Below, piece after piece: positions 3,641 through 30,998 of a stretch of DNA of 64,000 bases. Below the pieces are notes generated by a model. The model was not told where the DNA came from, ran no database searches, and saw nothing but the letters and a program-made list of their open reading frames with translations. The translations under genes were made by a program, and so were the position numbers. Each line of letters begins with the position of its first letter. Position 1 is the first letter of the stretch. The DNA is taken from the NCBI GenBank assembly GCA_032718475.1, contig JAUCBJ010005881.1, forward strand, positions 9,860 to 73,859. Direction: 5' to 3'. The stretch comes from Nemertoderma westbladi. Its lineage: Eukaryota > Animalia > Xenacoelomorpha.

Positions 3641-4930
3641 GTTAACTAAACGTTTACATAACGGCTGTGAGATAGTTAACTAAACGTTTACATAACGGCA
3701 GTGAGATAGTTAACTAAACGTTTACATAACGGCAGTGAGATAGTTAACTAAACGTTTACATAACGGCAGTGCGATAGTTAACTAAACGGTTACATAACGG
3801 CTGTGAGATAGTTAACTAATCGGTTACATAACGGCTGTGAGATAGTTAACTAAACGTTTACATAACGGCTGTGAGATAGTTAACTAAACGTTTACATTAC
3901 GGGAGTGAGATAGTTAACTAAACGGTTACATAACGGCTGTGAGATAGTTAACTAATCGTTTACATAACGGCTGTGAGATAGTTAACTAAACGTTTACATA
4001 ACGGCAGTGAGATAGTTAACTAAACGGTTACATAACGGCTGTGAGATAGTTAACTAAACGTTTACATAACGGCTGTGAGATAGTTAACTAAACGATTAAA
4101 TAACGGCTGTGAGATAGTTAACTAAACGGTTACATAACGGCTGTGAGATAGTTAACTAAACGTTTACATAACGGCTGTGAGATAGTTAAGTAAACGGTTA
4201 CATAACGGCTGTGAGATAGTCAACTAAACGTTTACATAACGGCTGTGAGATAGTTAACTAAACGGTTACATAACGGCTGTGAGATAGTCAACTAAACGTT
4301 TACATAACGGCTGTGAGATAGTCAACTAAACGTTTACATAACGGCTGTGAGATAGTTAACTAAACGGTTACATAACGGCTGTGAGATAGTTAACTAAACG
4401 TTTACATAACGGCTGTGAGATAGTTAACTAAACGTTTACATAACGGCTGTGAGATAGATAACTAAACGTTTACATAACGGCTGTGAGATAGTTAAATAAA
4501 CGTTTACATAACAGCTGTGAGATAGTTAACTAAACGTTTACATAACGGCTGTGAGATAGTAACTAACCGTTTACATAACGGCTGTGAGATAGTTAACTAA
4601 ACGTTTACATAACGGCTGTGGGATAGTTAACTAAACGTTTACATAACGGCTGTGGGATAGTTAAATAAACGTTTACATAACGGCTGTGAGATAGTTAACT
4701 AAACGTTTACATAACGGCTGTGGGATAGTTAACTAAACGTTTACATAACGGCTGTGGGATAGTTAACTAAACGTTTACATAACGGCTGTGGGATAGTTAA
4801 CTAAAGGTTTACATAACGGCTGTGAGATAGATAACTAAACGTTTACAAAACGGCTGTGGGATAGTTAACTAAACGTTTACATAACGGCTGTGGGATAGTT
4901 AACTAAACGTTTACATAACGGCTGTGAGAT
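3641..4930. repeat. Satellite, 34-bp unit (GTTAACTAAACGTTTACATAACGGCTGTGAGATA), left arm
   Basis: About 38 tandem copies ending at the GAGAT TSD of element 1. Confidence 0.97.
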
Positions 4931-5059
4931 TATAGAATTATATTCTCTAAATGCCGTGGATTTTCAAAATTTTTATTTTATTCGAATTAACTTTGCTAAA
5001 GATTACATTAAGTCCTCATTTGTATTTGCTATATCTATTTGTACGATGATTAGTCAAGT

Positions 5060-5144
5060 GGTTCAGTAGCTCAGTCGGTAGAGCGTTGGAAATTATATGT
5101 AGTGTGTATTGATTTCGAATCCTAGTAAGTGCGAATTATTTTTT
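5060..5144 (+). promoter_or_regulatory. tRNA-derived Pol III type-2 promoter-like segment in the 5' LTR (B box degenerate in this copy)
   Basis: A box/D-arm TAGCTCAGTCGGTAGAGC at 5067; GATTTCGAATCC at 5111; T6 run at 5139-5144. Confidence 0.7.
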
Positions 5145-5211
5145 GTGCAGAATTTCAACTCATTTAAATTGGCCGCTACAAATTAATTGCATTTACTCGA
5201 AGTAAGGTTAA

Positions 5212-5465
5212 CCAATGAGACTGTAGTTATTAGATTGTAACCAATGTCGTACGAGTTATATATTTGCTGGACCAATAGCTATCTTTAAAAACCTGTTAGA
5301 ACTCATAGAACAATCGAGAATTTTCTCGATTGATTGTGGCACAAATTTGGTATAAAAGGTGCGATTTCGTTCATTAGTTATCTCTCTCTATCTTTCTTTC
5401 TCAGTTACATTATTTCAGATTACATTGTTTATTGTATAATAGTTATCGTTTGATTTTGTAATAAA
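5212..5465 (+). promoter_or_regulatory. Candidate Pol II promoter and poly(A) signal of LTR 1
   Basis: CCAAT at 5212, 5241 and 5272 (about 30-bp spacing), TATAAAA at 5351, AATAAA at 5460. Confidence 0.55.
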
Positions 5466-7638
5466 AGTTAGAAATACTTGTCACATCTGCCCTTTTCTAT
5501 CTGTTTTATCATGCTTCACCACGGTGAACCCAACTGAGGGACAGGATGGCTGGCTAGACATCGGGCCGCAGCAATGAACGGGAACATCAAAGGAATGTAG
5601 ACAGGAATCAGGAATGATATCATCTTAGTTATTCGCCCATCGCCTGAAAGGTTAGACAGCGTTCGATGCCTTGCTACCTAAGTATAAGACCAAAGATCGA
5701 AGGTAGAGGTAGTGACACGCTGTACGCCTAAAATTACATCTAGGGACTGTACTGTCTTAATTCAGGAAAAAACCGCAGTAGACCTTCATATTCCTACGGG
5801 GGGGGAGAGGAGAGAGCTCAGGCAGAGATACTAGTACGCAGATAGGACGTAGGCACACCGGTACAAGGCATACACATTGGTAGGGTGCAGCAAACTGTAC
5901 GCCTAACTCTTGCTAAGTACAGGTGCGTCTGCGACTATTTGTAGTACAATGGTGTCCATTGCATCAGAACTTGTCGGCCAGGAGAGTTGCTGCGTTTCAC
6001 CTGAATTAGGATTGTACTGTTCAGGCGGTAGGGCAGTTTACGACTAGGCGCAAATAAATTGAGGCTAATTAGGGATACTAACATCTACCGTGTCCCCGCC
6101 GACATCCTGATAGGAAGTTACCAAGCCCACCTAGGTAACCAAAATTCTAGATAAGAACGCCAGGCTAGCTATTAGTAACCGTACGCCTACTGTAGTAAAC
6201 TAACACATTTCTTCTTAGTATTAGGGACCTGGTAAATTAAAATTGCCGAATTCTGGGCGTAGTATTAATCTCATGCCAGAATTTGAGTCCTGGAAATACG
6301 CAAGAGGGGAAGGAGCCTTATCATTCGTGAGTATTGGCCCTACAAGTTACAAAATTAGAATATTCGTAAAATGCACACCGTACCCAGTAATTATATATGT
6401 GAAGGAGCAAAACTGATCTTGACTGTTCAGAATTAACACACGCGCGTTAAAAATTATTTACACCTCAAAATATATAAAATTAACTTTTGTCCGTACTGCG
6501 CTTTGCCCGCTAGTTAGACATCTCCAAATCTCTGCACCTAGCTAGCGTCTCTTTCGCCCAACCATATAAATCACACCGCGGCAAAGTATACGAGCCCTTT
6601 AGTCCGTCAGCGAGTCAGCCTGATTTTAGGATTCGCTGCGCGGGATTTTGTTTTATCGAAGTTTGTCTGTTCGTAGACTGTTTTCTGCCTTACCGGTTAT
6701 AAGGGACCAATACTGCAATATATTCGCTTACTTGGAGTTTACTGTTTTGGTGAGAAGGTCGGATTTATGATTTGATTCACAAACTTTACAGTAAGATATT
6801 GCAGGTATTGTTACTGTCTCTTCGAATTAGTAGGAATGTGTTTTACTGAACTACAGTTCGGTAGGACTAAAGTTATTTGAAAATTTTGTATTTTGAGGTA
6901 AAAGTTTATATTTGATTAGCTAAGTGCTAATTTTTTGAAATAAAATTTTGATTTGAACCGCGTGTAAAATTTTTGGAATTGAATACCGGTGTTTAAAAGG
7001 ATTTAAATACCATATTGTACCGGTACAAAATTTTCGTAAAAGTAAAACCTAACTCTTTTGTTTTTCAGGATTCAGAACTCATTTCTAGACTGTAACGAGA
7101 GCAAGACCGTGTTTAGCAAGTTTGGGAGATAGATAACCCAACAACTTTGGTTGGGAAAATCGCACTTCGTCCGCAACGCTGGAAACGGAAAGGTTCACGT
7201 CCGGTTTGTATCTGGGAATCTGTTTTTCTGGAGAATTATTGGAGTGGGTGATTTCGAAAAGTTGCATAAATAAGTTAGGCATTACAGTATTAGTTAAAAT
7301 TTATTGTGGGTTCCACTGTCTCAAGTATTTATGCATTCCGTACGATTTCTTTGTTCATTGCTGAATTAGTCCGTATTATTGTATTTAATTTACCTTTTGA
7401 TAACGCATATCGTTATCCGATTTATTTGTTATAAAATTGGCCGCTAGGCTAATTTTATTATATACTTATTCCGTGACATTTATTTGCTGTAAAATTGGCC
7501 GTTTAGGCTAATTTTATCCATCTGCTATAAAATCGGCCGGTAGGCTAATTTTATATGACTGTAATTAGTACTGTTTAAATATAAATACGGTAAATTTGAT
7601 ACTTTGACACTCACTTTACTTGACTTACAACTACTGAA

Positions 7639-10600
7639 ATGAGTGACAAACAAGACTATACGAAGAATACACCTACCGACTATGACTCATGTGATGCGGA
7701 TAAGTCAGCAGCGGAAGAACTACAAGGGAAGACTCGCGAGCCTACCGAACCTACACCGTGTGCGTCACCAGTACATCCAACGGGAGTACCGGATGCCGTA
7801 GTACGAGGCGACGGCAGGACCGAGGACTTTCTAACTGTTCCGCAACCTAGATATAGGGAAACGGACATGGTAAGTTCAGTAGGAAGCCAGGAGAGCGTGG
7901 TTAGAAGCGTCGGCGGATACATGGCGCATATTACCAGGAGTATTGGAGAAGGCCAACGCATATTAGACGAGTTGACCGCTCCGATGTCTCGGTTTGAGTT
8001 CTACACCCTCCAGGTTAGAGTACAAAGTAGAGTACATAAGTCCGTAGATAACCTTATCAGTCTACAAGATCTAGCTAGACAGAGACAGGATATGGATACT
8101 CAACTTAGAATCCTCGAGAAACTAATGATCGCTAGAGAGAAACTGATTCAGTTTAAGTCGACAATTAGGCAGATACAACAGGAACAAGCGGACCAGTTGT
8201 TAGGTGAGTCAGTTTCGGACGAATTATTGCAACCCGAGGAAGAACAGGAACTGTATAGGCTGGATGGACAATTGAAACACCTGACGGATCACTTACGCAT
8301 GTGCGGCGAGGACGTCGGAGATTGGGAAACCGTGCCGGAGGCTACGAGGGAAACTTCACTCGCACAAATCGAACCGGCACCGGGAACACTAGATCAATCA
8401 CTGGTGAGTATTCGCAGCGAAATTGGCGAGGTGAGTATGGCTACGTCAGAAATTGCTCGACAACAGCAGATCTACAGACAACAACAGGAGTGGGAGGAAC
8501 AAACTCAATTGCTAATGGCACAAGCAGCAGCAGAAGAAGAGAAACTACGCGTTGCGAATGTTGCGAGAATCTCTCATCTGCAAGAACAAGCTGAGTTGGA
8601 AGCAGCCGAAATGGAAAGGTTAGAGTTGGACATTGCACAACAAGCGGCAGCGGCCGAGTTAGCGCAACGAACGGCAGCGGCCGAGTTAGAGCGACAAGCG
8701 GCAGCGGCAGCGGCAGTGGCAGCGTCCGAGTTAGAGCGACAAGGGTTAGCTTCAGAAGTGAGAACCGAAATGAAAAAACGGCAAGTAAAGGCTCAGTCAG
8801 CTATACGACAAGCGGAGTTCGAGGCGCAACAACAACAAACGGAACAACGCGAGAAAGAAGTTAAACTTCGTTTCGAACTTGAGAAGAAGGCGAGAGAATT
8901 AGCCAACGCCAAGGAAGATTTGGATCTACAAGCCCGCGACCGATCGATGAGATCTCGAGACGGACATGATTTAGACCAGATGGAGGTAAGGCACCGCCAA
9001 ATCCAGGAACGAATGAAGGAAGGTTCGATAGGAGCACCTGGACGGGAACGACAATTGGTTAAAGACTTATGTCAAAGATTCCCTCAAGTAACTCCTATGT
9101 TTGCACCAGTTACGACTAAGGAACCTGTTTTGATTGCTGGTAGTAGTAATATTTCTCCTATCCATGGTGCGACAGAACACAGGTTTGTTATTCCGGACAA
9201 GTTTACACCGCCAAGAGCAACGTCATCGCCTATTCCGAAAGTCAAGGTAAGTAACCCACCGATTACAGATCGTAGTAGTTTGTTGACCGCACCTGCACTA
9301 CTGACGACTAAACAGGTGAGTCCACCTTCGACACCAAAACCCGCCAGAACATACACGTACCCAATGACTTTTAGGCCTACAAGGCCTTTAGATTCAAACG
9401 CTGTCATTCGACCACCGAACCAGTTTACATCGCAATCTACGACTTCGAGGAAGACTTGTGAGCCTACCGAACAACGGAGACCAGTGGATACGCTACCGTT
9501 CAACCAGTTTACATCGCAATCTACGACTTCGAGGAAGACTTGTGAGCCTACCGAACAACGGAGAACAGTGGACGATGTTCCGAAACGGAATGTTAGAATT
9601 CGAACGACACAACGGACGCGAGCACGTCAGCCACCGTATCCAGGTGACAGTAGTACTTCGAGTGAATCGGATTACCCGAAACGCGAGGTATTTAGAACAG
9701 GAGCGGCTGACGAATATAAACGTGAGCGTTCAGATAACTCCTTTATCGATAATCCTCCACAAAATACACCAACACAAAAGGCGTTACAACCAACGGACGC
9801 AATTAGTACGCAACAACTCGCCGAAATAATGCGCCCAGTTGTAGACAAGTTGGCTCAGATAGAGAAACGTTTAGAAGAAACTCAAACTGATAGTTCGCGA
9901 GGTAACGAGTTCGAACACTCTAGACACCCGAAGCAGCAAAGAAAACAACCCTCGAGAAACACTTCGTATCAAGGAAAAGCGCCAAGACGAGAGAACATCA
10001 ACTCGATTGTCAACCAAGGACGCGAAACTTTGAACGTGGCCGAGGAGATAGCGAAATTCGCCGCCAGACAAGGTTTACCGGTACAACAACCACCGAAGTT
10101 TTCAGGTAACTCGAAACATTGGCACACCTTTGTGGACTACATCGAAACACAAATAGCAGCGTGCGCCTTTACATCGAGGGAGAAATTCAACTACCTGCTA
10201 CAAACGCTGACGGGAGAACCGAAACGTCTAGCGGAGACCTTTGTCGGTGTACCAGATGCCTTCGAACTAGCGTATGATCGCTTAACTTCAATTTACGGTG
10301 GCACGGTGAGTATGGCTAAGTCAGTGATAGATGAACTCTGTAAAGGGGGGGCTATAACAAAACCCGTTGACTTACTAAAATTAGCTGACGAGATTAAGAA
10401 CGCCATTACTACACTACGCTCGATTGGACAACTTGACTACGCGAACACTCCGACAGTTCTATTGAAAATAATAGGAAGATTACACCATCGACTTCGTCGG
10501 GAGTGGCGAAAGATAGAATATCAGCGAGAAGAGAGAGGCGGATTCTTGAAGTTGGAAGACGTCTACTTACTGATATCCAGAGAGGCAGTCGTTGAGACGC

Positions 10601-13600
10601 GTTCGAACTACACGGACCAACATATCGTGGCGGAGGGAATAACATTACCATCCTCGAACCGACAAAAACCCCAAACAACATCCACCAAGACGGTTACTTA
10701 CGCCACATCGACCGACACCCGACAATTTTCGGACAATAATAAGGTATCCGCACCAATTGGAACCAAACAGATCCGACAGCAACTGACCACAGATTTTAGC
10801 GGTTGCCAATATTGTGAACGGCTAGGTAAACGACATACTAGCCATAAACTGAGAGGTTGTCGACTATTCTGCGAATTGAACTCGGAGGAACGACGATTAC
10901 AAATACGACCATTGGACTCTTGTTGGCGGTGTACGCTACATGGACATGTCTGTAAGGACTGCCCAAATACAGACACCTGTCCTTCTTGTGGACGCAACCA
11001 CGACGGCTTGCTACATACAGACAGTCATACGCCGACCAAACGCTTCACCAGGGAACACCCGGAAGCTGCAGCAAGATGCAACACAGCATATAAGGGTCGA
11101 GAGTCGAAAACAACACCGACATTCGTGACGCACATTAGAGATTGTTTCTCGGAACAATCAGGATCGTCAGATGAAGAGTCGGAAGACGAAGACGTTTACT
11201 TTGATACTGGAGACGAACAACCATCGATTGCGCTTCTGACGCCTGATCAACTAAAGGGGTTTAGTATAATACCTGTCAAGATTACTGGCATCAAAGGGAG
11301 CAAGAGGATCTACGCTATCCTGGATTCAGCCTCATCTCATAGCTACGTGGATGAGAAAGTAGCTGATGTTGTGACGGATCTCCGACAAGGTAAGAACGTC
11401 AGTTACACCGTAAGTAGTATGCATGGACAACGTGCAATACCAGTGACACGAGTTAAGTTGAACTTAGACACTCTTCTTCCGAAATCGCAACATAGCGAAA
11501 AGGAGAGGTCTTTGTTACCCTTTAAGGATTTAACCTTTGCGGCCACAAAGGACTTTAGTAACCTACTAGGTCCTGTCCCAGAACAATCCTTGGAGGACCA
11601 TAAGTACTTCAGACACCTTGGTGTACCTGAATGTCCTGTCAACTATAGGTCGGTAGCAATGCTGATCGGGACAGATCAATTCAACCTACATCAAGTGTGG
11701 GAAACCAGACCATCGGCAGTCGTAGCGGGAAACGCATACGCCTGTAGAACGCCGATAGGGTGGTATACTCGAGCGCCTGTGCGCACACTGGATATAAGTG
11801 ACGAGGAAGACGATATACAAAGTACATGTAGTTTATTAACTACAACTTCGACTCATTCCTTTTCACACGACGTAGACTATACTACACTACATTCGACAAA
11901 ACATGACACGACGTGTGTAGCGAGTATGATAAGTCACAAGGAGCAGCTAATCCACCAGGTGAGTTTAGAACTTGGGAAGAAGACGAGTCAGCCAGAGATT
12001 CCATCGACGACAGATGATAACGCCGGAAGACTTGCGAGCCTTTCTACACCAGACATATCGCCAGACACGTTACCAGACGTATCACCAGACGCGTTACTAG
12101 ACGGTCAACCAGACATTTTGCCAGACATATCACAAAATGTTCTACCAGACACTAGTAACATATTGACAAATAGTAAAGCCGCAGTTTCTCTATTGGAGCG
12201 GCCTTCTACAGACAATCAACCAGACACGTTACCAGACGTATCGCCAGACGCGTTACTAGACGGTCAACCAGACGTTTTGCCAGACACGTCACTAGATATT
12301 TCGCCGGATGTTCCGCGAAACATTTTACCAGACATGTCACAAAATGTTCTACCAGACACTAGTAACATATTGACAAATAGTAAAGCCGCAGTTTCTCTAT
12401 TGGAGCGGCCTTCTATTGACAAACAACCAGACGCGTTACTAGACGGTCAACCAGACGTTTTGCCAGACATGTCACTAGATATTTCGCCGGATGTTCCGCG
12501 AAACATTTTACCAGACATGTCACAAAATGTTCTACCAGACACTAGTAACATATTGACAAATAGTAAAGCCGCAGTTTCTCTATTGGAGCGGCCTTGTATT
12601 GACAAACTACCAAATTTGACACACTTGAGCAACAATAAGCACAGTGAAACCTCATGTATTACAGATGTGGGTAGTACCTACGTAAATGTAAATACAGGTG
12701 TTACTTTGCGCTCAAGAGACATACCAAACTTGCAACCTATGGTGAAACCTGGGATTAATATCGGCAGAAAAATAAGTTTACCGAAACCCACTGACCCCAT
12801 AGAGTTCAAACCACCATTAACGATCGACTTACAAAGTACTGACAACCAAGGTAAGAAAACAAGGAAGGACAAATTACTTGTAGACCCGGACGGATCAACA
12901 GTCAACAAGGGAATACTTACCGGCGGACCCGTGGGCCCTTCTAGTAAATCAAAACCTTCCAAATTCTCCATTGACTTACCTGATGACGTCACAAATACTT
13001 ACGTCGACCGCATTGTAAACCTAACAGATTCTTGGACAAACGCTTGCCGAAAATTAGCGTGGATTGTACGTTTTGTACAATACGTTAAAGGCAAACGCGA
13101 CTTTACACGTCGACTTACATTGACTGAGATTGACAGGTGTGAAATTAAATTAATTCGCCATTACCAACTGCGATATTTCGCACGCGAATTCACATCTATA
13201 AATCAAGGTCAACCAATCAAGTCGTCACCAATATTGAGTTGGAGTCCGATAATTTATAATGGCTTAATTTGTCATAAATCTCGGCTTCAAAACATTGACT
13301 TTAACACAAACTTTAGATACCCAATAATAATATCGCAGCATCACGAACTACAACGTTCAATGATACTGGACGCACATTTACATCTGAAACACGCTGGAAG
13401 ACACCACTGTCTTTCCTACTTACATACAAGATTTGTATTAATTAGACCCAGTAAAGCGTTAAGTTCAGTGACACGTACGTGTATTATTTGTAAAAAGGTA
13501 CATTCTAGAATAGGTACCCAAGAAATGAGTGAACTTCCACAAGCACGACTTCAAGCATTCAGACCACCTTTTACAGAGACTGGAATTGACTGCTTTGGTC

Positions 13601-14511
13601 CCATACATACGAAACGTGGACGTATACTAGTAAAACGCTGGGGACTGATTTTCACATGTATGTCCAGTAGGGCAGTTCATATTGAACGTGTGATGGATCT
13701 TTCCACCAACGCGTTTATACTAGCATTGCGGCGATTTATCGCTAGACGCGGACTAGTGAAATGCTTGTACTCAGACCAAGGGACAAACTTTGTTGGTGCT
13801 CGAAATGAGATTGCTAGAGCCTTTAAGAAATTAGATCATGATCAAATCTCAAACGAACTACGTCCTTACAAGATTGTTTGGAAGTTTAATCCTCCAGATA
13901 GTCCATGGAGAGGCGGAGTCTGGGAGAGATTGATTAGATCTATAAAGACAGCCATGGCAAAGGTCATTCCAGTAAACCACATTTTGACAGACGACCAACT
14001 GACAACACTGTTTGTTGAAATCGAGGCAATACTAAATACTAGACCAATAGTATTAGTACCCGATGACAAACAATCCCAGTTTGCTTTAACACCGGCACAC
14101 CTGCTTATGCAGGCACCGACTACTTTAACGCCTATTTCTTTTCCAACAGAAGGCGATAGCTACGGTAGAAAAGCGTGGAAAATCAGGCAACTACTAGCTA
14201 ACAAATTCTGGGAAATATGGCAAAACCATTATTTGCCCTCTATTTCTGCCAGAACAACATGGTACAATAACACCCGCGCATTAAAGCCGGGAGATCACGT
14301 GCTGTTAGCGGAAGTGAATCTAAAAAGACGCTTCTGGATAACAGGTGTAATTTTAGCCACACATCCATCTATGGATGGAGTGACAAGAACTGTGACAGTA
14401 CGGACAATTGACGGTCGTACAGTTGACAGACCGACTCAACGTCTCGTACTTCTTGAAGAGACTCGTAACGAGTCTGGAGACTACAAATCTCCAACTAATG
14501 TTAGTAAATAA
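7639..14511 (+). CDS. BEL/Pao polyprotein Gag-protease-integrase lacking RT and RNase H (2290 aa)
   Basis: Gag PPKFSG...W..F; knuckles CQYC..H..C, CWRCTLHGHVCKDC, CPSCGRNHDGLLH; protease AILDSASSHSYV; IN HLHLKH...CIIC, TGIDCFGP, YSDQGTNF, GGVWERLIRSIK; no YxDD or DAS motif. Confidence 0.93.
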   Translation: MSDKQDYTKNTPTDYDSCDADKSAAEELQGKTREPTEPTPCASPVHPTGVPDAVVRGDGRTEDFLTVPQPRYRETDMVSSVGSQESVVRSVGGYMAHITRSIGEGQRILDELTAPMSRFEFYTLQVRVQSRVHKSVDNLISLQDLARQRQDMDTQLRILEKLMIAREKLIQFKSTIRQIQQEQADQLLGESVSDELLQPEEEQELYRLDGQLKHLTDHLRMCGEDVGDWETVPEATRETSLAQIEPAPGTLDQSLVSIRSEIGEVSMATSEIARQQQIYRQQQEWEEQTQLLMAQAAAEEEKLRVANVARISHLQEQAELEAAEMERLELDIAQQAAAAELAQRTAAAELERQAAAAAAVAASELERQGLASEVRTEMKKRQVKAQSAIRQAEFEAQQQQTEQREKEVKLRFELEKKARELANAKEDLDLQARDRSMRSRDGHDLDQMEVRHRQIQERMKEGSIGAPGRERQLVKDLCQRFPQVTPMFAPVTTKEPVLIAGSSNISPIHGATEHRFVIPDKFTPPRATSSPIPKVKVSNPPITDRSSLLTAPALLTTKQVSPPSTPKPARTYTYPMTFRPTRPLDSNAVIRPPNQFTSQSTTSRKTCEPTEQRRPVDTLPFNQFTSQSTTSRKTCEPTEQRRTVDDVPKRNVRIRTTQRTRARQPPYPGDSSTSSESDYPKREVFRTGAADEYKRERSDNSFIDNPPQNTPTQKALQPTDAISTQQLAEIMRPVVDKLAQIEKRLEETQTDSSRGNEFEHSRHPKQQRKQPSRNTSYQGKAPRRENINSIVNQGRETLNVAEEIAKFAARQGLPVQQPPKFSGNSKHWHTFVDYIETQIAACAFTSREKFNYLLQTLTGEPKRLAETFVGVPDAFELAYDRLTSIYGGTVSMAKSVIDELCKGGAITKPVDLLKLADEIKNAITTLRSIGQLDYANTPTVLLKIIGRLHHRLRREWRKIEYQREERGGFLKLEDVYLLISREAVVETRSNYTDQHIVAEGITLPSSNRQKPQTTSTKTVTYATSTDTRQFSDNNKVSAPIGTKQIRQQLTTDFSGCQYCERLGKRHTSHKLRGCRLFCELNSEERRLQIRPLDSCWRCTLHGHVCKDCPNTDTCPSCGRNHDGLLHTDSHTPTKRFTREHPEAAARCNTAYKGRESKTTPTFVTHIRDCFSEQSGSSDEESEDEDVYFDTGDEQPSIALLTPDQLKGFSIIPVKITGIKGSKRIYAILDSASSHSYVDEKVADVVTDLRQGKNVSYTVSSMHGQRAIPVTRVKLNLDTLLPKSQHSEKERSLLPFKDLTFAATKDFSNLLGPVPEQSLEDHKYFRHLGVPECPVNYRSVAMLIGTDQFNLHQVWETRPSAVVAGNAYACRTPIGWYTRAPVRTLDISDEEDDIQSTCSLLTTTSTHSFSHDVDYTTLHSTKHDTTCVASMISHKEQLIHQVSLELGKKTSQPEIPSTTDDNAGRLASLSTPDISPDTLPDVSPDALLDGQPDILPDISQNVLPDTSNILTNSKAAVSLLERPSTDNQPDTLPDVSPDALLDGQPDVLPDTSLDISPDVPRNILPDMSQNVLPDTSNILTNSKAAVSLLERPSIDKQPDALLDGQPDVLPDMSLDISPDVPRNILPDMSQNVLPDTSNILTNSKAAVSLLERPCIDKLPNLTHLSNNKHSETSCITDVGSTYVNVNTGVTLRSRDIPNLQPMVKPGINIGRKISLPKPTDPIEFKPPLTIDLQSTDNQGKKTRKDKLLVDPDGSTVNKGILTGGPVGPSSKSKPSKFSIDLPDDVTNTYVDRIVNLTDSWTNACRKLAWIVRFVQYVKGKRDFTRRLTLTEIDRCEIKLIRHYQLRYFAREFTSINQGQPIKSSPILSWSPIIYNGLICHKSRLQNIDFNTNFRYPIIISQHHELQRSMILDAHLHLKHAGRHHCLSYLHTRFVLIRPSKALSSVTRTCIICKKVHSRIGTQEMSELPQARLQAFRPPFTETGIDCFGPIHTKRGRILVKRWGLIFTCMSSRAVHIERVMDLSTNAFILALRRFIARRGLVKCLYSDQGTNFVGARNEIARAFKKLDHDQISNELRPYKIVWKFNPPDSPWRGGVWERLIRSIKTAMAKVIPVNHILTDDQLTTLFVEIEAILNTRPIVLVPDDKQSQFALTPAHLLMQAPTTLTPISFPTEGDSYGRKAWKIRQLLANKFWEIWQNHYLPSISARTTWYNNTRALKPGDHVLLAEVNLKRRFWITGVILATHPSMDGVTRTVTVRTIDGRTVDRPTQRLVLLEETRNESGDYKSPTNVSK

Positions 14512-15043
14512 TTAGGAGTTTACAAATAGATTTCCACGTACCTGTACACTGTAGTAAAGACAGCGGTAGAATTCCATTGTCTTTATATGTGAACATTGAG
14601 GGTAATACCCTTATGTATCACATAGGAGCGGGATTTGTAGGTATAAGAAATGGAATTATACTTGGAACTCACAATATTGAGACATTTTCGAAACTTTAGA
14701 CAATCCATTTGGATTTGAAAAAATTTTAAAATTTTCTCCAGTGAATAGATTTCAGGGTACAGTCGGGTGGAACTTAAAATTAGAGAAACAAGAGAGGAAG
14801 ACTTGCGAGCCTTTCTTAAAATTTTAATTAAATTTTACACGGTCTTGTTTCAATAAGTTACGTCAAAATAGACTTCCCTATATTTATTACTAATTCTTGA
14901 TTGCTTATTTTCTGATAATAGTTTGGGATCAAAAAGTGAGTATTTTAGACTCACAGCCAGTTTAGCCCAAATTCGTTTTTTATTTCGGCAAAAATTTTAG
15001 ATAAGAAGCAGCGTGTCATTAAAGAAACCCTAGATCTTAGGCT

Positions 15044-16666
15044 ATGGGTAGGAGGTTAGAGCGTTGTCGAGCCAAAAAAGGCAGACGAAAACTCTCACGT
15101 CTCCTCACAACTAACTACAAACTCTGTTGTAATCCCTCTAGTAGTAATGATTATGTAACTACACCTCTAATTATGGAGAGGATGCGTGTATTGGGCTATT
15201 ACGTCACCTCCAAGAGCGGTCTTACAATATTATTTAGCAATAGAGTCGTCAGTGAATGTTTGCTTAATAACAAACGTATCGTGGAGATTACGGATGAATC
15301 ACGGCAGACGCGCGCACCTATCGGTCACCTTGGTGATGATTTCGAAGTAACGACTACGATCACTGACGATCCTTTAGAGGAACTTCTTGAGATAGAAAGG
15401 AACCTCCCGAAGAAATCTCAGACGGAGATTCGACAACTTGAAGCAACAGATGCTATAGTTTGTATACAACCTTCAGAAACCTACCAACCCATAGATCCAG
15501 ATGATTATGATTATAGTGTGGGAGGAAGCGCTCGACCAATTGGAGATCTTATATAAGAACGAGTGTGGTACCCTGCCAATACGATGTGTGGTAAATGTGG
15601 CGTCGCTGGACATCATTCGACCAAGTGCAGTGGAAAGCACATTACTACGACTCAACTAATCTGTGGATGGTGTGGAGATCAAGGGTCTCATACCTTTTAT
15701 ACTTGCTGGAGATTTATGGCTCAATGTACTTATTGCAATATAAAAGGGCATCGAGCATCTGAATGCCAACTAAGAGACATACCCTATGAACACGAATCTG
15801 TAAAACTCGTGAGAAAACTATTCGATGAGTGGGAAGATTTAGCCGACGAACACGTATCGGCACAAAGAAGACGATTTCCGATGAGGGCGCATCTTGGATT
15901 TTGGGCGGTAAATCCCCAAACGATGATGTCGGAAGGATACATCTCCGCTATGCCCCAATATGACGAACTTATCGAGGTAGTCGATATTTTGCCTCACGAC
16001 AGTCGATTCCGAGTAGTGCGTGAGTATCTATTACAGATTCACCCAGACAACAAGAACACGTGGAATTTTCAGAAAGTCGTAAATCGTATCACGTATGGTG
16101 AATTTGATCGTTTTCGAACTGAAAAGCGGAATAAAGGAGCTTGGTTAACCGTCGCATGGGCGTACCGAGCCGCGTTTTACCACAAACGTATACGAGCGAG
16201 CGTATTCGAGGAAGAGGAGATCCTAGAGGCGACAAATATACCAGCCACTCCGGTTGCGCCGTCTGCACGTCACACTCGGGAGGACGGGCAGGGTAGGATC
16301 ATAAGGGTCCAGAAAGTTAGCCAACAATTAAAGAAGTCTATTAATATAGAAGAACGCAAGGGAGTTGAGCCGACCATTCGAATTACTCGGGATACGGTAT
16401 CGCTTCCTAGAGAACCAACAGGAGGATCGGGACATACACCAGCTGATCAAAAGGGGGCGCAAGCTACTCTTGGGTCTGTGTCGTCCGCTTCCCGCGCATT
16501 CCCAGACGTTTTACCAACTGTAGTGACAACTGATCGGTCACGAGGAATCGGTCGAGGTTTTGGGATGCCAAATAGACGAATTTGCGAGGAAATAGTCGCA
16601 CCGTCTCCCAACGTCCAAACGAAACCAGTGACTCGCCCCACGAGTCCCATATCGCGAGCAAAGTGA
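15044..16666 (+). pseudogene. Accessory ORF of element 1, triple zinc-knuckle protein with one in-frame TAA (15554-15556)
   Basis: ORFs 15044-15556 and 15563-16666 share a frame; CGKCGVAGHHSTKC, CGWCGDQGSHTFYTC, CTYCNIKGHRASEC; start codon uncertain. Confidence 0.75.
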
Positions 16667-17502
16667 CCTGTGCGCAGTTTTCGAGGACGCGGCAGGGCTC
16701 GATCCACTAAGCGATAAAAGGGAGGGCAAGGGTGGACGGAAGACTCGTGAGCCTTTCTTGTGAATTTGTGATTTATTTGAATTATATGTTTTATATTTAA
16801 TTAGTAAGTTTTGTATTCTGGAAGAACTCATATTTAGTAAGATTTATATTTAGTAAGAATTTATATTTTGCAAGATTTATATTTTATATTTGTGATTATT
16901 CCGAACTTATGCAATTTATATTGTTCCGAATACTATGCAATTTATATCTTATAAGCAGTATTTGTATTTACAGTGAAATAGAAAGTAAGAGTAGATGGAA
17001 GACTCGTGGGCCTTTCTTATAGTTTCATTTGTAAAGTGTTATATTTGTATTTAGAAAGTTTTATAGTTAGAAAGTTTTGTACTTAGAAAGACTCATATTT
17101 GTAATTATTCCGAACTTATGCAATCTACATTTAGGCACGAAAGTATTTGTAATTATTTGAATTTATGCAATATTTGAGATGCAATAGTAGATGGAAGACT
17201 CGCGAGCCTTTCTTATGATTTCATTTATTTGTATTTGTAATTGTTTGAATTTATGCAATATTGAGATGCAATAGATTTATATTGGTGAATTTAATTTAGA
17301 TTTATATTGTACTTACTTAGTAAAGCCTTAAATATGTAAAGTTTGAATTTGTAATTATTTTGTATCGAATTATTATGTAGAAAGGAAGTATTGCTTGAAA
17401 TTTAATTTGTAAATATGTAAGTACGCGACGCCCTAAGTATTCTATAATTTGATTGATTATTGGTGAAAACCGTATATTTTATGCACGATAATATCCTGTT
17501 TT

Positions 17503-17512
17503 CATGGAGCGG
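17503..17512 (+). other. Polypurine-tract-like site of element 1 (CATGGAGCGG)
   Basis: Immediately precedes the 3' LTR; resembles CTGGGTGCGG at the same position in element 2. Confidence 0.65.
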
Positions 17513-19410
17513 TATAGAATTATATTCTCTAGATGCCGTGGATTTTCAAAATTTTTATTTTATTCGAATTAACTTTGCTAAAGATTACATTAAGTCCTCA
17601 TTTGTATTTGCTATATCTATTTGTACAATGATTAGTCAAGTGGTTCAGTAGCTCAGTCGGTAGAGCGTTGGAAATTATATGTAGTGTGTATTGAGTTCGA
17701 ATCCTAGTAAGTGCGAATTATTTTTTGTGCAGAATTTCAACTCATTTAAATTGGCCGCTACAAATTAATTGCATTTACTCGAAGTAAGGTTAAGCAATGA
17801 GACTGTAGTTATTAGATTGTAACCAATGTCGTACGAGTTATATATTTGCTGGACCAATAGCTATCTTTAAAAACCTGTTAGAACTCATAGAACAATCGAG
17901 AATTTTCTCGATTGATTGCGGCACAAATTTGGTATAAAAGGTGCGATTTCGTTCATTAGTTATCTCTCTCTATCTTTCTTTCTCAGTTACATTATTTCAG
18001 ATTACATTGTTTATTGTATAATAGTTATTGTTTGATTTTGTAATAAAAGTTAGAAATACTTGTCACATCTGCCCTTTTCTATCTGTTTTATCATGCTTCA
18101 CCACGGTGAACCCAACTGAGGGACAGGATGGCTGGCTAGACATCGGGCCGCAGCAATGAACGGGAACATCAAAGGAATGTAGACACGAGACAACCCGCAA
18201 TATCATCTTAGTTATTCGCCCATCGCCTGAAAGGTTAGACAGCGTTCGATGCCTTGCTACCTAAGTATAAGACCAAAGATCGAAGGTAGAGGTAGTGACA
18301 CGCTGTACGCCTAAAATTACATCTAGGGACTGTACTTTCTTAATTCAGGAAAAAACCGCAGTAGACCTTCATATTCCTACGGGGGGGAGAGGAGAGAGCT
18401 CAGGCAGAGATACTAGTACGCAGATAGGACGTAGGCACACCGGTACAAGGCATACACATTGGTAGGGTGCAGCAAACTGTACGCCTAACTCTTGCTAAGT
18501 ACAGGTGCGTCTGTGACTATTTGTAGTACAACGGTGTCCATTGCATCAGAACTTGTAGGCCAGGAGAGTTGCTGTGTTTCACCTGAATTAGGATTGTACC
18601 GTTCAGGCGGTAGGGCAGTTTACGACTAGGCGCAAATAAATTGAGGCTAATTAGGGATACTAACATCTACCGTGTTCCCGCCGACATCCTGATAGGAAGT
18701 TACCAAGCCCACCTAGGTAACCAAAATTCTAGATAGGACGCCAGGCTAGCTATTAGTAACCGTACGCCTACTGTAGTAAACTAACACATTTCTTCTTAGT
18801 ATTAGGGACCTGGTAAATTAAAATTGCCGAATTCTGGGCGTAGTATTAATCTCATGCCTGAATTTGAGTCCTGGAAATACGCAAGAGGGGAAGGAGCCTT
18901 ATCATTCGTGAGTATTGGCCCTACAAGTTACAAAATTAGAATATTCGTAAAATGCACACCGTACCCAGTAATTATATATGTGAAGGAGCAAAACTGATCT
19001 TGACTGTTCAGAATTAACACACGCGCGTTAAAAATTATTTACATCTCAAAATATATAAAATTAACTTTTGTCCGTACTGCACTTTGCCCGCTAGTTAGAC
19101 ATCTCCAAATCTCTGCACCTAGCTAGCGTCTCTTTCGCCCAACCATATAAATCACACCGCAGCAAAGTACACGAGCCCTTTAGTCCGTCAGTGAGTCAGC
19201 CTGATTTTAGGATTCGCTGCGCGGGATTTTGTTTTATCGAAGTTTGTCTGTTCGTAGACTGTTTTCTGCCTCACCGGTTATAAGGGACCAATACTGCAAT
19301 ATATTCGCTTACTTGGAGTTTAATGTTTTGGTGAGAAGGTCGGATTTATGATTTGATTCACAAACTTTACAGTAAGATATTGCAGGTATTGTTACTGTCT
19401 CTTCGAATTA
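17513..19410 (+). repeat. 3' LTR of element 1 (1898 bp)
   Basis: Direct repeat of 4931-6829, followed by TSD GAGAT. Confidence 0.95.
17642..17726 (+). promoter_or_regulatory. tRNA-derived Pol III promoter-like segment in the 3' LTR (intact A and B boxes)
   Basis: TAGCTCAGTCGG at 17649, GAGTTCGAATCC at 17693 with tRNA-like spacing, T6 at 17721-17726. Confidence 0.75.
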
Positions 19411-19428
19411 GAGATAGATAACTAAACG
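19411..19428. repeat. 18-bp remnant of the 34-bp satellite between the two retrotransposons
   Basis: GAGATAGATAACTAAACG matches monomer variants seen near 4451 and 4824 and contains both inner TSD copies. Confidence 0.9.
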
Positions 19429-20608
19429 TGTAAAGGCTTTTGCGGAATTAGCCGGTTATTTTCCCGGTAAAGTACTCTGTAGTTGGTTTAACAGGCATAA
19501 AAGGCCGTGTCCTTACTGTACTGGTGTTTTAGAGGACATAAAAGTCATTTCTTCTGTATGTGTACTTTAGCGGACATAATTCGCAATTTTATGACGCAAT
19601 GCGCCAAATCCTCTGTAAACAGTGTAGCTACCATGACGACGGCTAACAGCTGATGCTGTACACGTGGAGCCTTTTCTTTGTTCTCTGTTCCTTCTTTGTT
19701 CGGTCGACCAATCAGAGTGTTTTTGCCTCTGTGTTAGAGATTGTATATAGAAACTCGTGGAGTTGAGTCAGTATGTGATTTTGTCCACAGCCTACAACAC
19801 AGGCTTTGGAACCTCCGTGTTTCAGTCTTTAGCCCAACATTAGTAGGCTTAATTATAGAACGTATATCTGTTATCAATCCAAACTCAATAATCATAACTT
19901 ACTCACTCACTCATAACTTAACAAACCATTCATAACTTAACATTTTACTGCTTTTACTGTCGGTTATTCATTATATTTGTTGATGGAATATTATATTTGG
20001 AATACTGATAAATAATCAGACACCCCAATCTTCTTGATATACTAAAGGTTAGAGAGACCGGTTACATATAACGATTGCGACTTACATTAAGTGGTTTGAA
20101 GTGAATCTAATGCTATTTTATAGGCCCTACATGTATTGTCTGTTGTTCTCCTTATATGTGACTAAAATTAATGAAGGTCGGCAGATCAGTGTGCAGCATT
20201 GTGCAGTATTGTGTATGATTGTGATTGATAACAAAGCATCTCCTAAAGAATGCGCCATATACGTGAATCTATAGCCATTCCGTTGTGTCTAGTTTAAGTC
20301 ATAACTCTGTTTATATATTTAAAGCGCCACGTCCTAAAGGAACTGTTAATATTTCCCGAAAGTGAATAATATTTGTCAGAGATTATATATATTACGATCA
20401 GTCGAATAATACAGTAGGCCTACCCCGCAATACGGTTAGGCTTCCGAATCCAGTCTCCCGGGTATATCCAGCGGGTGAATGATCGCGCATAGACTGGCTT
20501 CGGCTAATGTAGTGTATCAAATACTTGTCATAGGCTAAAGATGATCTATCATCTAAAAGACATCCCAATTTGGCAGGTTAAACTGCTAAAGGTCTGAAAA
20601 CGCGAACA
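19429..20608 (+). repeat. 5' LTR of element 2 (1180 bp)
   Basis: Matches 36861-38040 with about 11 substitutions counted by eye. Confidence 0.96.
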
Positions 20609-20890
20609 ATAACAGATATACCTTCTGTATTGCAGTAGGCAATAACGCTGAAGTACCGGACAACCGGTACCTAGTAGGCCTGACTACCTAACCACCCGGA
20701 CCGGTACCTACAGCAGTACAGGTACATCAGTATTATTCGATTGTGAAATTGTATACCGGTAGGCTGTTTAAGAGATTAGGGACTGTACACCCCTTGTTTC
20801 TTTTGGAGCTTACTTATTTCTGTCAGTTTTATTTATTTGTAGGCCAGTATTGAGCAGAAGGCGTGTAAGCCTGCTCAGATTGTACAGACA

Positions 20891-21455
20891 ATTTGTAGGC
20901 TAGACTGTTGTCTGACTGTTGTTAAGTCTGAAGGGACTGTAGTGTGTGTAGAGCATATGTCCGAAAAAGTACTAGTTAGGAAAGTAGGGGCTGCCAGTGC
21001 TGTGAGGTGAACCCCCCAAGAAAGAATAAGTCGTACTACTCGGTTAGAACGCATACTAACTAACCATTTCGGAGTCTGCATATATTGTAGTTTATTTAGG
21101 CTTGATAGTAGTCTGCCAGCGTTTGGTCTGTACCTTGTTTGTGTAGTTTGTATGGGTAGCGTAATAGTTCTTATTTAGATAATTTGTAGGCTGGATTTTG
21201 TCTGACTGTTGTTAGGTCTTGAGAGATTTCGGTGTGTGTAGAGTGTATGTCCGATAAAGTGCCAGTTGGGAACGTAGGGGCTTCCAGAGCTGTGAGGTAA
21301 ACCCCCTCGAAAGTATAAGTCGTACTACTGGGTTAGAACGCATACTAACTAACCATTTTGGAGTCTGCATATACCGTAGTTTGTTTGGGCTTGACAGTAG
21401 TCTGTCAGTATTTGGTCTGCATTTTGTTTGAGTAGTCTGTACGCGTAGCGTAATA
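20891..21455 (+). repeat. Tandem duplication (~291-bp period) in the 5' leader of element 2
   Basis: ATTTGTAGGCT...GTCTGACTGTTGTTA...GGTTAGAACGCATACTAACTAACCATTT occurs twice, starting at 20891 and 21182. Confidence 0.85.
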
Positions 21456-22791
21456 TTTATTATTCAGAGTTTATGCGATTATTCGCAACATTCATATCCC
21501 CAAGTTTATTCCTACAGTAATTGTGCTTGTTATATATACCGTTATAGTTAAACTAACCCCGGTACTACATCAGGGCTGCTTGGCGTAGGTAAAGACTGGT
21601 GATTTTGTGCCCCGGTCACTCCAGCAGATACCGTGGTTCTTTTAGCTGTTCAAGTATTTTTAACTACTGATTATTTGTTGTATAAGTACTTGTACCTAAT
21701 TTAGGGTTTAGTGTACAGTGCTTTCCGAAGGTGATTAGTGTGTAGGCAGTATATTTGTGTTGTAAAGTGGTTAATAGGCACGTTGGTTCTGGTAGACCGC
21801 GGTAATTAACTTCTAGGTAGGAACACTCCGTGATACATAACGTAGTACTTATAGCGCCACGGCTATAAGTCGTCAGACGGTGGTATTTTTCTATCTGGAC
21901 AACGCAGTATATTTACTACTACTTATTATTTTCAAATACCGTAGTACCCTGTCCTTTGTAATAACCAGATATTCTAACCCTTTGTTAGGCTGGTTAGTAA
22001 ACTTCTTGTAAAACTACCCTAAAAATTTGTACTTGTAAATTTTTGTGTTTATTTAGAGATTGTAATCTCACCTCGAATTGTACGTAATTTGTAGTATTAA
22101 GTAACTTAGGTAAATTAGAATTATTTGTTTTAGTGTCCAACAAGTAGCACTTCACTGAGAGCGCACAGCTTCTGTGTAGTGACTCCCCCCAGAAATAATA
22201 ACATTTATTTCAAATATTGACAAAACCCATTTAACGGGTAAATATATTATAAATCAACTCAAACCGATTTATAAAATAGTAGGCCTGCCATACAACAATT
22301 AGGTCTCAAGATCAGTTAGACTACTGCTCAAATAACGGTAATCAAGTAAAGCAAAGTAACCAAGTAACCCTAAAAATTCAGAAATTCAATTATTCTAAAA
22401 TAATTGATATACTATTTACAATAGGCTTATTATATTTATTTCTATAAATTTAGGCTGAAATTATACCGGTATTCTGTAATTAATTCTAGTCCATAATTAT
22501 ACTTATATATACTATAAGTGTAAGCTGTATACCGGTATTCACGATAGGCCTATTATATATTTATATATACTTGTGCTGAAATTACATACCGGTATTCTGT
22601 GACTAATCTAGTCTGTGACAATACTTATATATATATACTATAAGCATACCGGTATTCTAATATATTATATATATATTACGCTACACTGAGTAGCAGTATC
22701 GGTAATTAATTACTAGGCTAACAGTGATACTGAATTACTAGACTTGCTTAAACTGTAATATAGCAGTAGGCATTCAACTGTACAAACCAAC

Positions 22792-28700: not shown

Positions 28701-30998
28701 GTTGCCTTGGTTACCTCTAAGGCATTAATAAACAATAAGTTGAAAGTTCCTCGAGCGGATTTAAAAGCGGCTCTATACGCTACAGCCATCGGCCGGAATG
28801 TAACAGAACAGATCGACTATCCACTGGAGAAAACTGTCTATTGGACCGACGCTTTGCTCGTGTTGGAGTATATAACCAATGAAGTCTGTCAGTTCAGCGT
28901 CTTCGTTACCAACAGAGTAGCCATTATACTCAGTCGCACAACGATGGATCAATGGAGACATTGCCCCGGAACGATTAATCCAGCAGACATCGCTTCCAGG
29001 GGAGCAACTCCACAAGAACTGGTTGATACTCCAGACTGGCTAGGTGGACCCGACTTCCTCTACAAAGAAGAAGAAGAATGGCCTCCTCATCTTACTACCA
29101 CAGAGATTAGACAAGCCAAGGGAGTGGAGAAAGTCAAACCTAAAACTCAGGCGAGTAAATCGAAGTTATTCAAACCTATGGTAGATCTGTCTGTACTACA
29201 TACTTCCGGAGACGACGCCTTGGATCAGAAACCCACAGCCACAAATAAACTTGTTGTGGAAATCCGTGAGAAGGATTGGACATCTGGAATACCAGACGCC
29301 TCGCAAGGACTCTCACCTCTCCTGCAGAGAGCGATACATCACTACAGTTCCTGGAATCGGCTCTGTAAGGCCGTTACATATTTAAAAAGATGTTTTCACC
29401 ATCACTACTCCGGGATGAAGACCAAAAGTGATACCGCTCCAATAACATCGGTGCAGGTCCATGTTATTAAAGATCTTCCCAAATATAAGATATCCGACAG
29501 GTTTCTGAAGGAGAAGATCAGTTATCAGGAGCATGAAGAAACCAACAAGCAGATGCTGAGACTCCTGCAATGCTATGAGGATTCCGATAAGTATTTCCTG
29601 TTGTTGAGAAATCCGCAGATGCACTTAAGGGATCGTTTCTCTAGCACAATGATAGATGGGTTGATACGTGTTGGAGGAAGATTAACGAATGCTCCATTAT
29701 CCTTTGACACTAAGTTTCCCATACTCATTAGAAATCTTGAAATACAAGTCAAGATGATTGTAGACGTTCACAGCAAACTTTATCATGCTGGTAGGGAATG
29801 AGTTCTTAGCGAAATTCGAACTTGCTATTATTTTTATAAACCCCGTAGAGCTCTGAACCAAGTTCTTAGGAACTGCATACCCTGTAGGAAAGCATTCAGT
29901 AGGCCTTTAACACAGCGAGAGGCAGAATTACCTAGGGAACGAGTAAGCTTCTATGAACCACCCTTTACTAATACCGGTGTGGATTTATTTGGCCCTATTG
30001 AAGTATATCGTGCTAGGACTATAGTCAAGAGATGGTGTGTCATCTTTGTTTGTATGACTTGTAGAGCTATCCATCTCGACAGGGTGAACGATTTATCTAC
30101 CAACAGCTTTCTATTAAGCTTACGACGACAGATCGCTCGCTTTGGCACTAGTAACACGATGAGATCTGATAAGGGAACAAACTTCATTGGTGCCAACAAT
30201 GAAATCAAAGCTTACGTCAAAGATTGGAACCAAAGACAGGTGGACGATCAGCTACGAGTAACAGCGTCTAGCTGGACCTTCAACGCCGCCGACGCCCCTT
30301 GGTGGGGAGGAAGTTGGGAGAGATTAATAAGAAGTGTGAAAACCGCATTTCACTTTATAGTGCCGTGCCGCGCGTATCTCACCGACGAACTTTTGCGGAC
30401 GTTAATGGAGGAAATCGCCGCCTATCTCAACGAGAGACCGCTTATGCCAGTCTCATCGAGTCCCGATTCCCTGGAAGCGCTAACACCCGCGCATTTCCTA
30501 CTGAAGAAACCTGTAGCCATGCTCCCACAATCGGAAATCACAGACGGAGACGAATACTGCCGGCAAACTTGGCAACTCATGCAGTTGTTATCCCGTCGTT
30601 TCGCTGACCATTTCGAAAAACATTATCTGCCCACGCTACAACTTCGAACTAAGTGGTTTGCGCAGCAAGAAAACGTCAGCGCTGGAGACATGGTTCTTAT
30701 TGTGGATGTAGATCTTCCACGTAAGCGGTGGCAGACAGGTCGTATCATCGAGACTCACATCTCGGATGACGGTTTGGTGCGATCGGTAGAACTCGTCGTC
30801 ATGCGACGTAACTTCAAGAAACCGGGAATTGTCTTCGAGACACAGCAGCTCAATCGCCCAGTTGGTCGCTTATGTTTACTGGAAAGGGACAGAGAACTCT
30901 CCGGAAACTATGGGAGGCAAGATACTCTTCCCACGACCACCTCCCTAATCCAACAAACATCTAGGGACTATAAATTTTATTATAATCGTTTTCTTTAA
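22792..30998 (+). pseudogene. BEL/Pao gag-pol (Gag, PR, RT, RNase H, IN) disrupted by four stops and one frameshift
   Basis: Knuckles CYNCLRQGHQRRTC; PR ALLDSGSTGTFI; RT ASDIEGMFLQV and YMDD; RH LHVFGDAS, YWTD, NPADIASRG; IN TGVDLFGP, SDKGTNF, GGSWERLIRSVK; stops at 23032, 23218, 25354, 29799; frameshift near 26040. Confidence 0.93.

What the first reader, a model, noticed from the sequence alone, without database searches (positions are those of the whole stretch)
4926..19415. Non-canonical TA...TA LTR termini in the element that keeps its own integrase
Seen: the GAGAT TSD fixes the ends as TATAG...AATTA in both LTR copies, versus TG...CA in element 2. Known: DDE retro-integrases normally cut after a conserved CA. 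Inference: altered end specificity could explain why element 1 must retain a private integrase. One-base ambiguity: a 4-bp AGAT TSD with an LTR ending in G also fits, but that end is non-canonical too.
Basis: partly seen in the sequence, partly recalled or inferred. Interest (0 to 1): 0.7.

Follow-up and report, generated by a model that had tools for sequence, protein, structure and literature searches.

The report
TA-ended BEL/Pao element lacking reverse transcriptase
This jumping gene of BEL/Pao descent has lost its copying enzyme and ends in TA...TA instead of the usual TG...CA, and because its intact integrase matches its normal-ended neighbour at most positions thought to grip DNA ends, the odd ends are likely tolerated rather than read by a special enzyme; it also likely primes its copying with its own RNA.

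Summary
Element 1 (4931-19410) has two 1.9-kb LTRs, both TATAG...AATTA, with a 5-bp GAGAT duplication; element 2 is TG...CA. The one-base ambiguity favours TA. The disputed G is the first base of a tract that pairs with the element's own LTR, as in element 2 and 4 of 5 non-tRNA-primed relatives, and every resolvable relative has a 5-bp duplication. Element 1 encodes one open Gag-protease-integrase frame with intact DDE and no RT or RNase H. The 'private integrase' idea is not supported. Its catalytic-helix residues match those of element 2 at most positions, and RT-less BEL polyproteins and odd ends occur elsewhere. TA...TA ends are published for plant Copia and annelid Gypsy elements; I found none for BEL/Pao. 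The stronger feature is that neither element has a tRNA primer site and both show a self-priming-like pairing. This scan already noted that signature in other genomes. Verdict: a new variant of a known kind, of moderate interest.

The parts
4926..4930 (+). Left copy of the 5-bp target-site duplication (GAGAT) in a 34-bp satellite
4931..6829 (+). Element 1 5' LTR, TATAG...AATTA, 1899 bp
5067..5122 (+). tRNA-like A-box/B-box stretch followed by a T run inside the LTR; not called a tRNA
   Evidence: A box by motif scan, B box read from the sequence; no ARAGORN or Rfam hit
5787..5797 (+). LTR site complementary to the post-LTR tract (8 Watson-Crick pairs, 11 with one G-U); candidate self-primer
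6830..6840 (+). Primer-site position; no TGG; pairs with 5787-5797; followed by a hairpin (6840-6867)
7624..14511 (+). Single open frame of 2295 codons: Gag (DUF1759, zinc knuckles), protease-like region, linker, integrase; no RT or RNase H
11791..12993 (+). Low-complexity linker with in-frame tandem repeats (183 and 24 bp) where RT/RNase H normally lie
13111..14508 (+). Integrase region: HHCC, D1989-D2051-E2101, DUF5641; predicted retroviral integrase fold
15041..16666 (+). Extra zinc-knuckle ORF region (two frames separated by a stop); the second frame is homologous to the last ORF of element 2
   Evidence: 26% identity, E 9e-18
17506..17512 (+). Short polypurine tract ending in GCGG, the same ending as in element 2 and L022
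17513..19410 (+). Element 1 3' LTR, TATAG...AATTA
19411..19415 (+). Right copy of the target-site duplication
19429..38040 (+). Element 2, comparison element: TG...CA LTRs (19429-20608, 36861-38040), TSD AAACG, RT and RNase H present, frame interrupted
19862..19874 (+). Element 2 LTR site, the exact 13-base complement of its post-LTR tract 20609-20621
   Evidence: 0 of 2000 and 0 of 2312 controls

Best explanation
Element 1 is a BEL/Pao-derived LTR retrotransposon with TA...TA ends, a 5-bp target duplication and one open Gag-protease-integrase frame without reverse transcriptase, which is likely copied by a borrowed reverse transcriptase, likely primed by a piece of its own LTR RNA, and likely inserted by its own integrase that is predicted to tolerate TA ends. 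Shown: ends, TSD, domain content, intact DDE, open linker, absence of a tRNA-type site, and pairing of the post-LTR tract with the own LTR. Inferred: (1) RT/RNase H come in trans from an unidentified partner. (2) The LTR site at 5787-5797 serves as minus-strand primer and so sets the right end at A6829. (3) Both joining 3' ends are CA-to-TA changes that keep the terminal A, which an ordinary DDE core accepts. (4) Integrase is kept with Gag and protease as a matched set for its own diverged LTR, not because of the dinucleotide.
For: Ends and TSD. No RT/RNase H by Pfam, tblastn or a BEL polyprotein profile, which skips positions 675-1275. Linker open against about 22 expected stops. Integrase fold matches PFV and Ty3 intasome chains (Foldseek E 1.8e-16; core Z about 14, rmsd 2.7 over 143-162 residues). 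Catalytic-helix residues are shared with element 2 and mostly with 98 database relatives (G2098 98 of 98, R2102 97 of 98). L022 ends TA...AA with a 5-bp TSD in a different clade, so these ends arise more than once. In lotus, Copia elements with different ends are intermingled in integrase trees (PMC9804982). Pairing: element 2 has 13 exact pairs (0 of 2000 simulated LTRs). Element 1 has 8 exact or 11 with G-U (64 of 2000; anchored energy 12 of 462 and 2 of 304). L001 has 15 exact pairs. L022, L026 and L020 have 14, 11 and 11 across a GT-AG intron in the LTR (0 of 415, 0 of 402, 2 of 413). None of 3 TGG-type elements pairs this way.
Against: Only one insertion of the family was read. Element 1's pairing is only moderately significant on its own (p about 0.01-0.04). 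Unanchored duplex energy was matched by 8 of 60 internal controls in element 1 and 4 of 60 in element 2. The duplex dominates folding only when the RNA is started at the site (0.93-1.0 in element 1, about 0.7 in element 2) and is lost with upstream starts. L011 lacks TGG and shows no pairing. The L020 LTR start was picked after a shorter choice gave no spliced match. The core does differ from element 2 at S2093, R2096, V2099 and Q2052, and integrases are 45% identical overall, so specificity changes elsewhere are not excluded. L022 also joins odd ends with RT loss.
Confidence: 0.62

Rival explanations
1. The TA ends and the integrase co-evolved, so only the element's own integrase can insert it, and this is why integrase survived the loss of RT.
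For: The frame to integrase is kept open. Both odd-ended BEL elements seen here (element 1 and L022) lack RT. Element 1's integrase is on a long branch. Co-evolution of ends and integrase is raised as a possibility for plant Copia (PMC9804982 section 18).
Against: Catalytic-helix residues are mostly the same as in TG...CA element 2. There is no shared signature with L022 (1 residue, controls 1-10). L022's integrase frame is interrupted. Gag and protease are kept too. 2 of the 120 listed hits also lack the RNase H family yet keep integrase; their ends are unknown.
Confidence: 0.18
2. TA...TA is a variant of this copy or a small subfamily, fixed in one replication cycle, and most family members are TG...CA.
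For: Each end differs from canonical by one transition (left end TATA against TGTA in element 2). The LTR family is deep and variable in four public runs.
Against: Both changes are needed and both LTR copies carry both. Neither position is among the 40 best-supported differences shown, but 425 rows were not shown, so this is weak.
Confidence: 0.1
3. The LTR ends in G, with a 4-bp AGAT duplication (TA...AG ends).
For: Both LTR copies are followed by G.
Against: The G is the first pairing base of the post-LTR tract. Four relatives start that tract with G. All 6 resolvable comparison elements have 5-bp TSDs. A terminal A is kept in all of them.
Confidence: 0.04
4. The ends are as described, but the LTR/post-LTR pairing is a leader structure or chance, and priming uses an unrecognised host RNA or tRNA fragment.
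For: The transcript start is unknown. A TATA box at 5351 would start RNA about 400 bases upstream, where the duplex is not favoured. No host tRNA set could be searched.
Against: The paired letters differ among six elements, and each pairs at least as well with its own LTR as with any other (tie only between L020 and L022 tracts at 7). The pairing starts exactly at +1, and in three relatives it is completed only by a canonical splice junction.
Confidence: 0.2

Closest known systems
Non-TGCA LTR retrotransposons with TA...TA ends: AtRE1 and lotus/grape Copia (10.1101/137141; PMC9804982), annelid Gypsy elements (PMC8220671 supplement)
   Same: TA...TA termini; 5-bp duplication (13 Gypsy rows with the TATA motif in the annelid supplement).
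   Different: BEL/Pao descent, 1.9-kb LTR (lotus TATA Copia average 229 bp), no RT/RNase H. Both BEL/Pao rows in the annelid table are TGCA.
Belpaoviridae / BEL-Pao LTR retrotransposons (ICTV profile PMC8742986)
   Same: Gag DUF1759, integrase with H2C2 and DUF5641, same order, PPT; best hits are BEL/Pao-type polyproteins (Pao peptidase, DUF5641) at 34-41%.
   Different: No RT/RNase H, no tRNA-Arg/Gly primer site, LTR 1.9 kb (range 0.2-1.2), length 14.5 kb (range 4.2-10), extra zinc-knuckle ORF, TA...TA ends.
Self-priming LTR elements: Tf1/Tj1, Tf1/Sushi, Tcn1, TAR (PMC6317226; PMC4600332)
   Same: No tRNA site; the tract right after the LTR is complementary to the own LTR.
   Different: Different superfamily. 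The primer site lies 867 bases into the LTR and is not shown to be the transcript 5' end. Element 1 has no RNase H of its own. In three relatives the primer is completed only by splicing.
Zam/errantivirus clade with AGT...AYT ends (PMC3601003, Table 3)
   Same: An animal LTR lineage that lacks TG...CA.
   Different: There the departure is the clade consensus; here the sister element is canonical.

Membership tests
Belpaoviridae (BEL/Pao) | Gag capsid/nucleocapsid domains | tested here: met
   DUF1759 E 1e-10 and zinc knuckles
Belpaoviridae (BEL/Pao) | Protease | tested here: met
   DSA motif in the translation; region aligns to element 2 and to hits; no Pfam hit
Belpaoviridae (BEL/Pao) | Reverse transcriptase and RNase H | tested here: not met
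   Absent by Pfam, tblastn and profile; filed as a non-autonomous derivative, not a member
Belpaoviridae (BEL/Pao) | DDE integrase after RNase H position | tested here: met
   HHCC, D1989/D2051/E2101, DUF5641, fold match
Belpaoviridae (BEL/Pao) | 18-nt primer site for host tRNA-Arg or tRNA-Gly | tested here: not met
   No TGG within 60 bases after either element's LTR
Belpaoviridae (BEL/Pao) | LTR 0.2-1.2 kb, genome 4.2-10 kb | tested here: not met
   1.9 kb and 14.5 kb
Belpaoviridae (BEL/Pao) | Polypurine tract before the 3' LTR | tested here: met
   Short purine-rich tract ending in GCGG
Non-TGCA LTR elements, TATA type | TA...TA in both LTRs flanked by a 5-bp duplication | tested here: met
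Non-TGCA LTR elements, TATA type | Ends shared by independent insertions | not testable with these tools
   No genome held; one search lists no loose ends at the LTR borders; pattern scan found nothing
Tf1-type self-priming elements | 10 or more complementary bases starting 0-5 bases after the LTR (criterion of PMC6317226) | tested here: inconclusive
   Element 2 meets it (13 exact). Element 1 has 8 exact, or 11 with one G-U
Tf1-type self-priming elements | Primer is the 5' end of the transcript, released by cleavage | not testable with these tools
   Needs RNA 5'-end and cDNA data
Integrase with altered end specificity | Changed residues at DNA-end-contacting positions | tested here: inconclusive
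   Most catalytic-helix positions match element 2. Mapping to solved integrases is weak, and contact lists are recalled. Other domains were not mapped.

The most novel reading that the evidence does not exclude
A high-copy family of giant BEL/Pao-derived elements is a 'half-autonomous' parasite. It borrows only RT/RNase H, primes with its own LTR RNA, so that primer placement rather than a tRNA sets the DNA end, and carries an integrase that has truly switched from CA to TA ends. Tracts of this kind would let LTR ends drift and re-couple to private integrases.
Probability: 0.15. Interest if true: 0.75.

Novelty: new variant of a known kind. Interest (0 to 1): 0.45.

Why it matters
Elements like this are likely missed or mis-trimmed by LTR finders that expect TG...CA, a tRNA site and RT. 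The two sister elements, one TA...TA and one TG...CA, with 45% identical integrases and near-identical catalytic helices, are a natural pair for testing whether the conserved C of CA is needed or only tolerated. The self-pairing primer site, seen here in six elements with different letters, contradicts the ICTV description of BEL/Pao as tRNA-primed and can be tested directly.

Tried and rejected
Other copies of the family: no genome held. Contigs of 4 runs laid on 17300-20850 show both LTRs deeply covered and variable, but the shown rows (40 of 465 differences, 24 of 1053 loose ends) include none at the termini. An LTR pattern found 0 matches in metagenome contigs. Viral contigs: 0 of 31 and 0 of 63 candidate stretches were relatives. 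tRNA, ribozyme or other Rfam family in 4900-38100: none. RIP-like CA loss: rejected, CA and TA ratios are near 1. Splice-junction primer in elements 1 and 2: no gain over the unspliced pairing. Relatives of the extra ORFs: none for element 2's, 1 zinc-knuckle-only hit for element 1's. Single-sequence PDB search for the integrase: 0 hits. 22 of 30 loci had no usable LTR right end and were dropped from the primer test. An inverted-repeat scan of 15 of them gave nothing I could assign to a primer site. L028 was left out of the tree (short match), as were L027, L029 and L030. The energy ranking picked non-anchored sites for L020, L022 and L026 and was replaced by exact-run tests. One search set element 2's 5' LTR end one base too far; corrected. 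The PFV intasome paper is not held, so contact residues are recalled. Literature searches for BEL/Pao self-priming, RT-less integrase-keeping elements or BEL terminal dinucleotides. None of the passages I saw reports TA...TA ends or self-priming for BEL/Pao; subscription papers and Repbase are not covered.
Full report
Observation. The window holds two LTR elements back to back in a 34-bp satellite, 13 bases apart in the empty site. Element 1 runs 4931-19410. Its LTRs are 4931-6829 and 17513-19410, both TATAG...AATTA, with 27 substitutions in 1895 aligned bases. Element 2 runs 19429-38040 with TGT...ACA LTRs (11 substitutions in 1180). Each has a 5-bp duplication.

Anatomy. Element 1 has one 2295-codon frame with DUF1759, H2C2 and DUF5641 hits. 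It aligns to relatives over Gag-protease and over integrase, and not between. A BEL polyprotein profile matches positions 21-674 and 1276-1765 only. The gap is filled by 401 codons with in-frame tandem repeats and no stop, where about 22 are expected. HHCC and DDE are intact. The model (pLDDT 80.8) matches PFV and Ty3 intasome chains. Element 2 has RT and RNase H, with in-frame stops and a frame change. Both carry a related zinc-knuckle ORF after pol. Their integrases are 45% identical and are sisters in two trees: SH-aLRT 99 in a quick tree with long branches, and 100/96 in a careful tree of 28 rows.

Fixing the ends. The left end follows a purine tract ending in GCGG in element 1, element 2 and L022. 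For the right end, neither element has TGG within 60 bases of the LTR. The tract from +1 instead pairs with the own LTR. In element 2, 13 bases pair exactly with 19862-19874 (0 of 2000 simulated LTRs, 0 of 2312 internal starts). In element 1, 8 pair exactly, or 11 with one G-U, with 5787-5797 (64 of 2000; 62 of 1516; anchored energy 12 of 462 and 2 of 304). The pairing starts at the disputed G and fails one base earlier, which places G in the primer tract and A at the LTR end. Against this, unanchored energies are not exceptional (8 of 60 and 4 of 60), and the duplex wins in folding only if the RNA starts at the site.

Relatives. Scans returned 30 BEL loci, probably animal host DNA inside microbial assemblies (inference). 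Eight had a definable right LTR end. Three have TGG-type sites and TG...CA ends. Of the five without TGG, L001 pairs over 15 exact bases. L022, L026 and L020 pair over 14, 11 and 11 bases only across a GT-AG intron in the LTR (0 of 415, 0 of 402, 2 of 413 controls). L011 shows no pairing. The splice test came from earlier scan notes e1-7811049 and e1-7882409; it gave no gain in elements 1 and 2. Of six loci with both ends, five have 5-bp duplications and L011 is unresolved. L022 ends TA...AA, belongs to another clade, lacks RT through an in-frame gap and has interrupted frames. So odd ends occur more than once in BEL/Pao, and in both cases the terminal A of each joining strand is kept.

The integrase idea. 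Around the catalytic glutamate, elements 1 and 2 share D2092, P2094, W2095, G2097, G2098, W2100, E2101, R2102, R2105 and K2108. They differ at 2090, 2091, 2093, 2096, 2099 and 2107. A weak profile alignment places this stretch on the matching helix of HIV-1 and HTLV-2 integrase. That this helix and loop contact the DNA end is recalled, because the PFV paper is not held. Element 1 and L022 share one private core residue, and controls give 1-10. I find no signature of switched specificity, though other domains were not mapped. Keeping integrase is real, but Gag and protease are kept too, and the LTRs of the two elements share no similarity. Two of 120 listed hits also lack RNase H while keeping integrase.

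Mechanism, most likely. The element makes Gag-protease-integrase, borrows RT/RNase H from an unknown partner (inferred), primes on its own LTR RNA (inferred), and is inserted by its own integrase, which tolerates TA (inferred).

Known work. TA...TA ends are reported for AtRE1 (10.1101/137141, passages) and for lotus Copia (154 copies; PMC9804982, passages and section 18). They also appear in 13 Gypsy rows in an annelid (PMC8220671, passages and supplement rows), where both BEL rows are TGCA. Zam ends lack TG..CA (PMC3601003, passages). The ICTV profile gives tRNA priming for BEL/Pao (PMC8742986, whole text). Self-priming is described for Tf1/Sushi, Tcn1 and TAR (PMC6317226 and PMC4600332, passages). 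Also seen as passages without bearing on BEL ends: PMC6934838, PMC5445492, PMC3286476, PMC10209032, PMC554778, PMC2774666, PMC3118150. The Ty3 preprint gave no term hits. The supplement of the LTR_retriever preprint was not seen; it lists the plant motif classes. Searches showed me no report of TA...TA ends or self-priming in BEL/Pao. The scan noted the self-priming signature before in other genomes and had no note on non-canonical BEL ends.

Open. Verdict: a real feature and a new variant of a known kind; interest 0.45.

Noticed in passing
window 6830-6840 with 5787-5797; 20609-20621 with 19862-19874: Both elements lack a tRNA-type site and pair their post-LTR tract with their own LTR; both have a TAG 16 bases before the 3' end of the LTR site and a hairpin just after the tract.
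   Followed up: yes
L022:5186-12091: BEL element with TA...AA ends, 5-bp duplication, RT gap and a 14-base primer match across an LTR intron.
   Followed up: yes
L026:8412-8776, L020:7265-8311, L001:6385-6706: Further BEL elements whose post-LTR tract pairs with their own LTR, across a GT-AG intron in L026 and L020.
   Followed up: yes
window 5067-5145 and 17649-17727: tRNA-like A box, B box and T run in the upstream part of element 1's LTR, a possible Pol III promoter or SINE remnant; no ARAGORN or Rfam hit.
   Followed up: partly
window 3641-4930, 19411-19428, 38041-38452: Two unrelated LTR families inserted 13 bases apart in the same 34-bp satellite; possible target preference, untested.
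   Followed up: no
window 15041-16666, 32549-36537: Extra ORFs after pol in both elements; the zinc-knuckle ones are homologous to each other and have next to no database relatives.
   Followed up: partly
window 40595-41479 and 47944-48592: Long inverted repeats with 151-160-bp subrepeats next to 22-bp satellites, possibly a foldback-type DNA element.
   Followed up: no
window 50558-52060: 500-codon frame with RVT_1 and DUF6451, probably a non-LTR retrotransposon piece.
   Followed up: no
L002-L030: 29 BEL/Pao loci in prokaryote genome assemblies, probably animal host DNA binned with microbes; two lie in a Wolbachia chromosome record (L013, L028).
   Followed up: no
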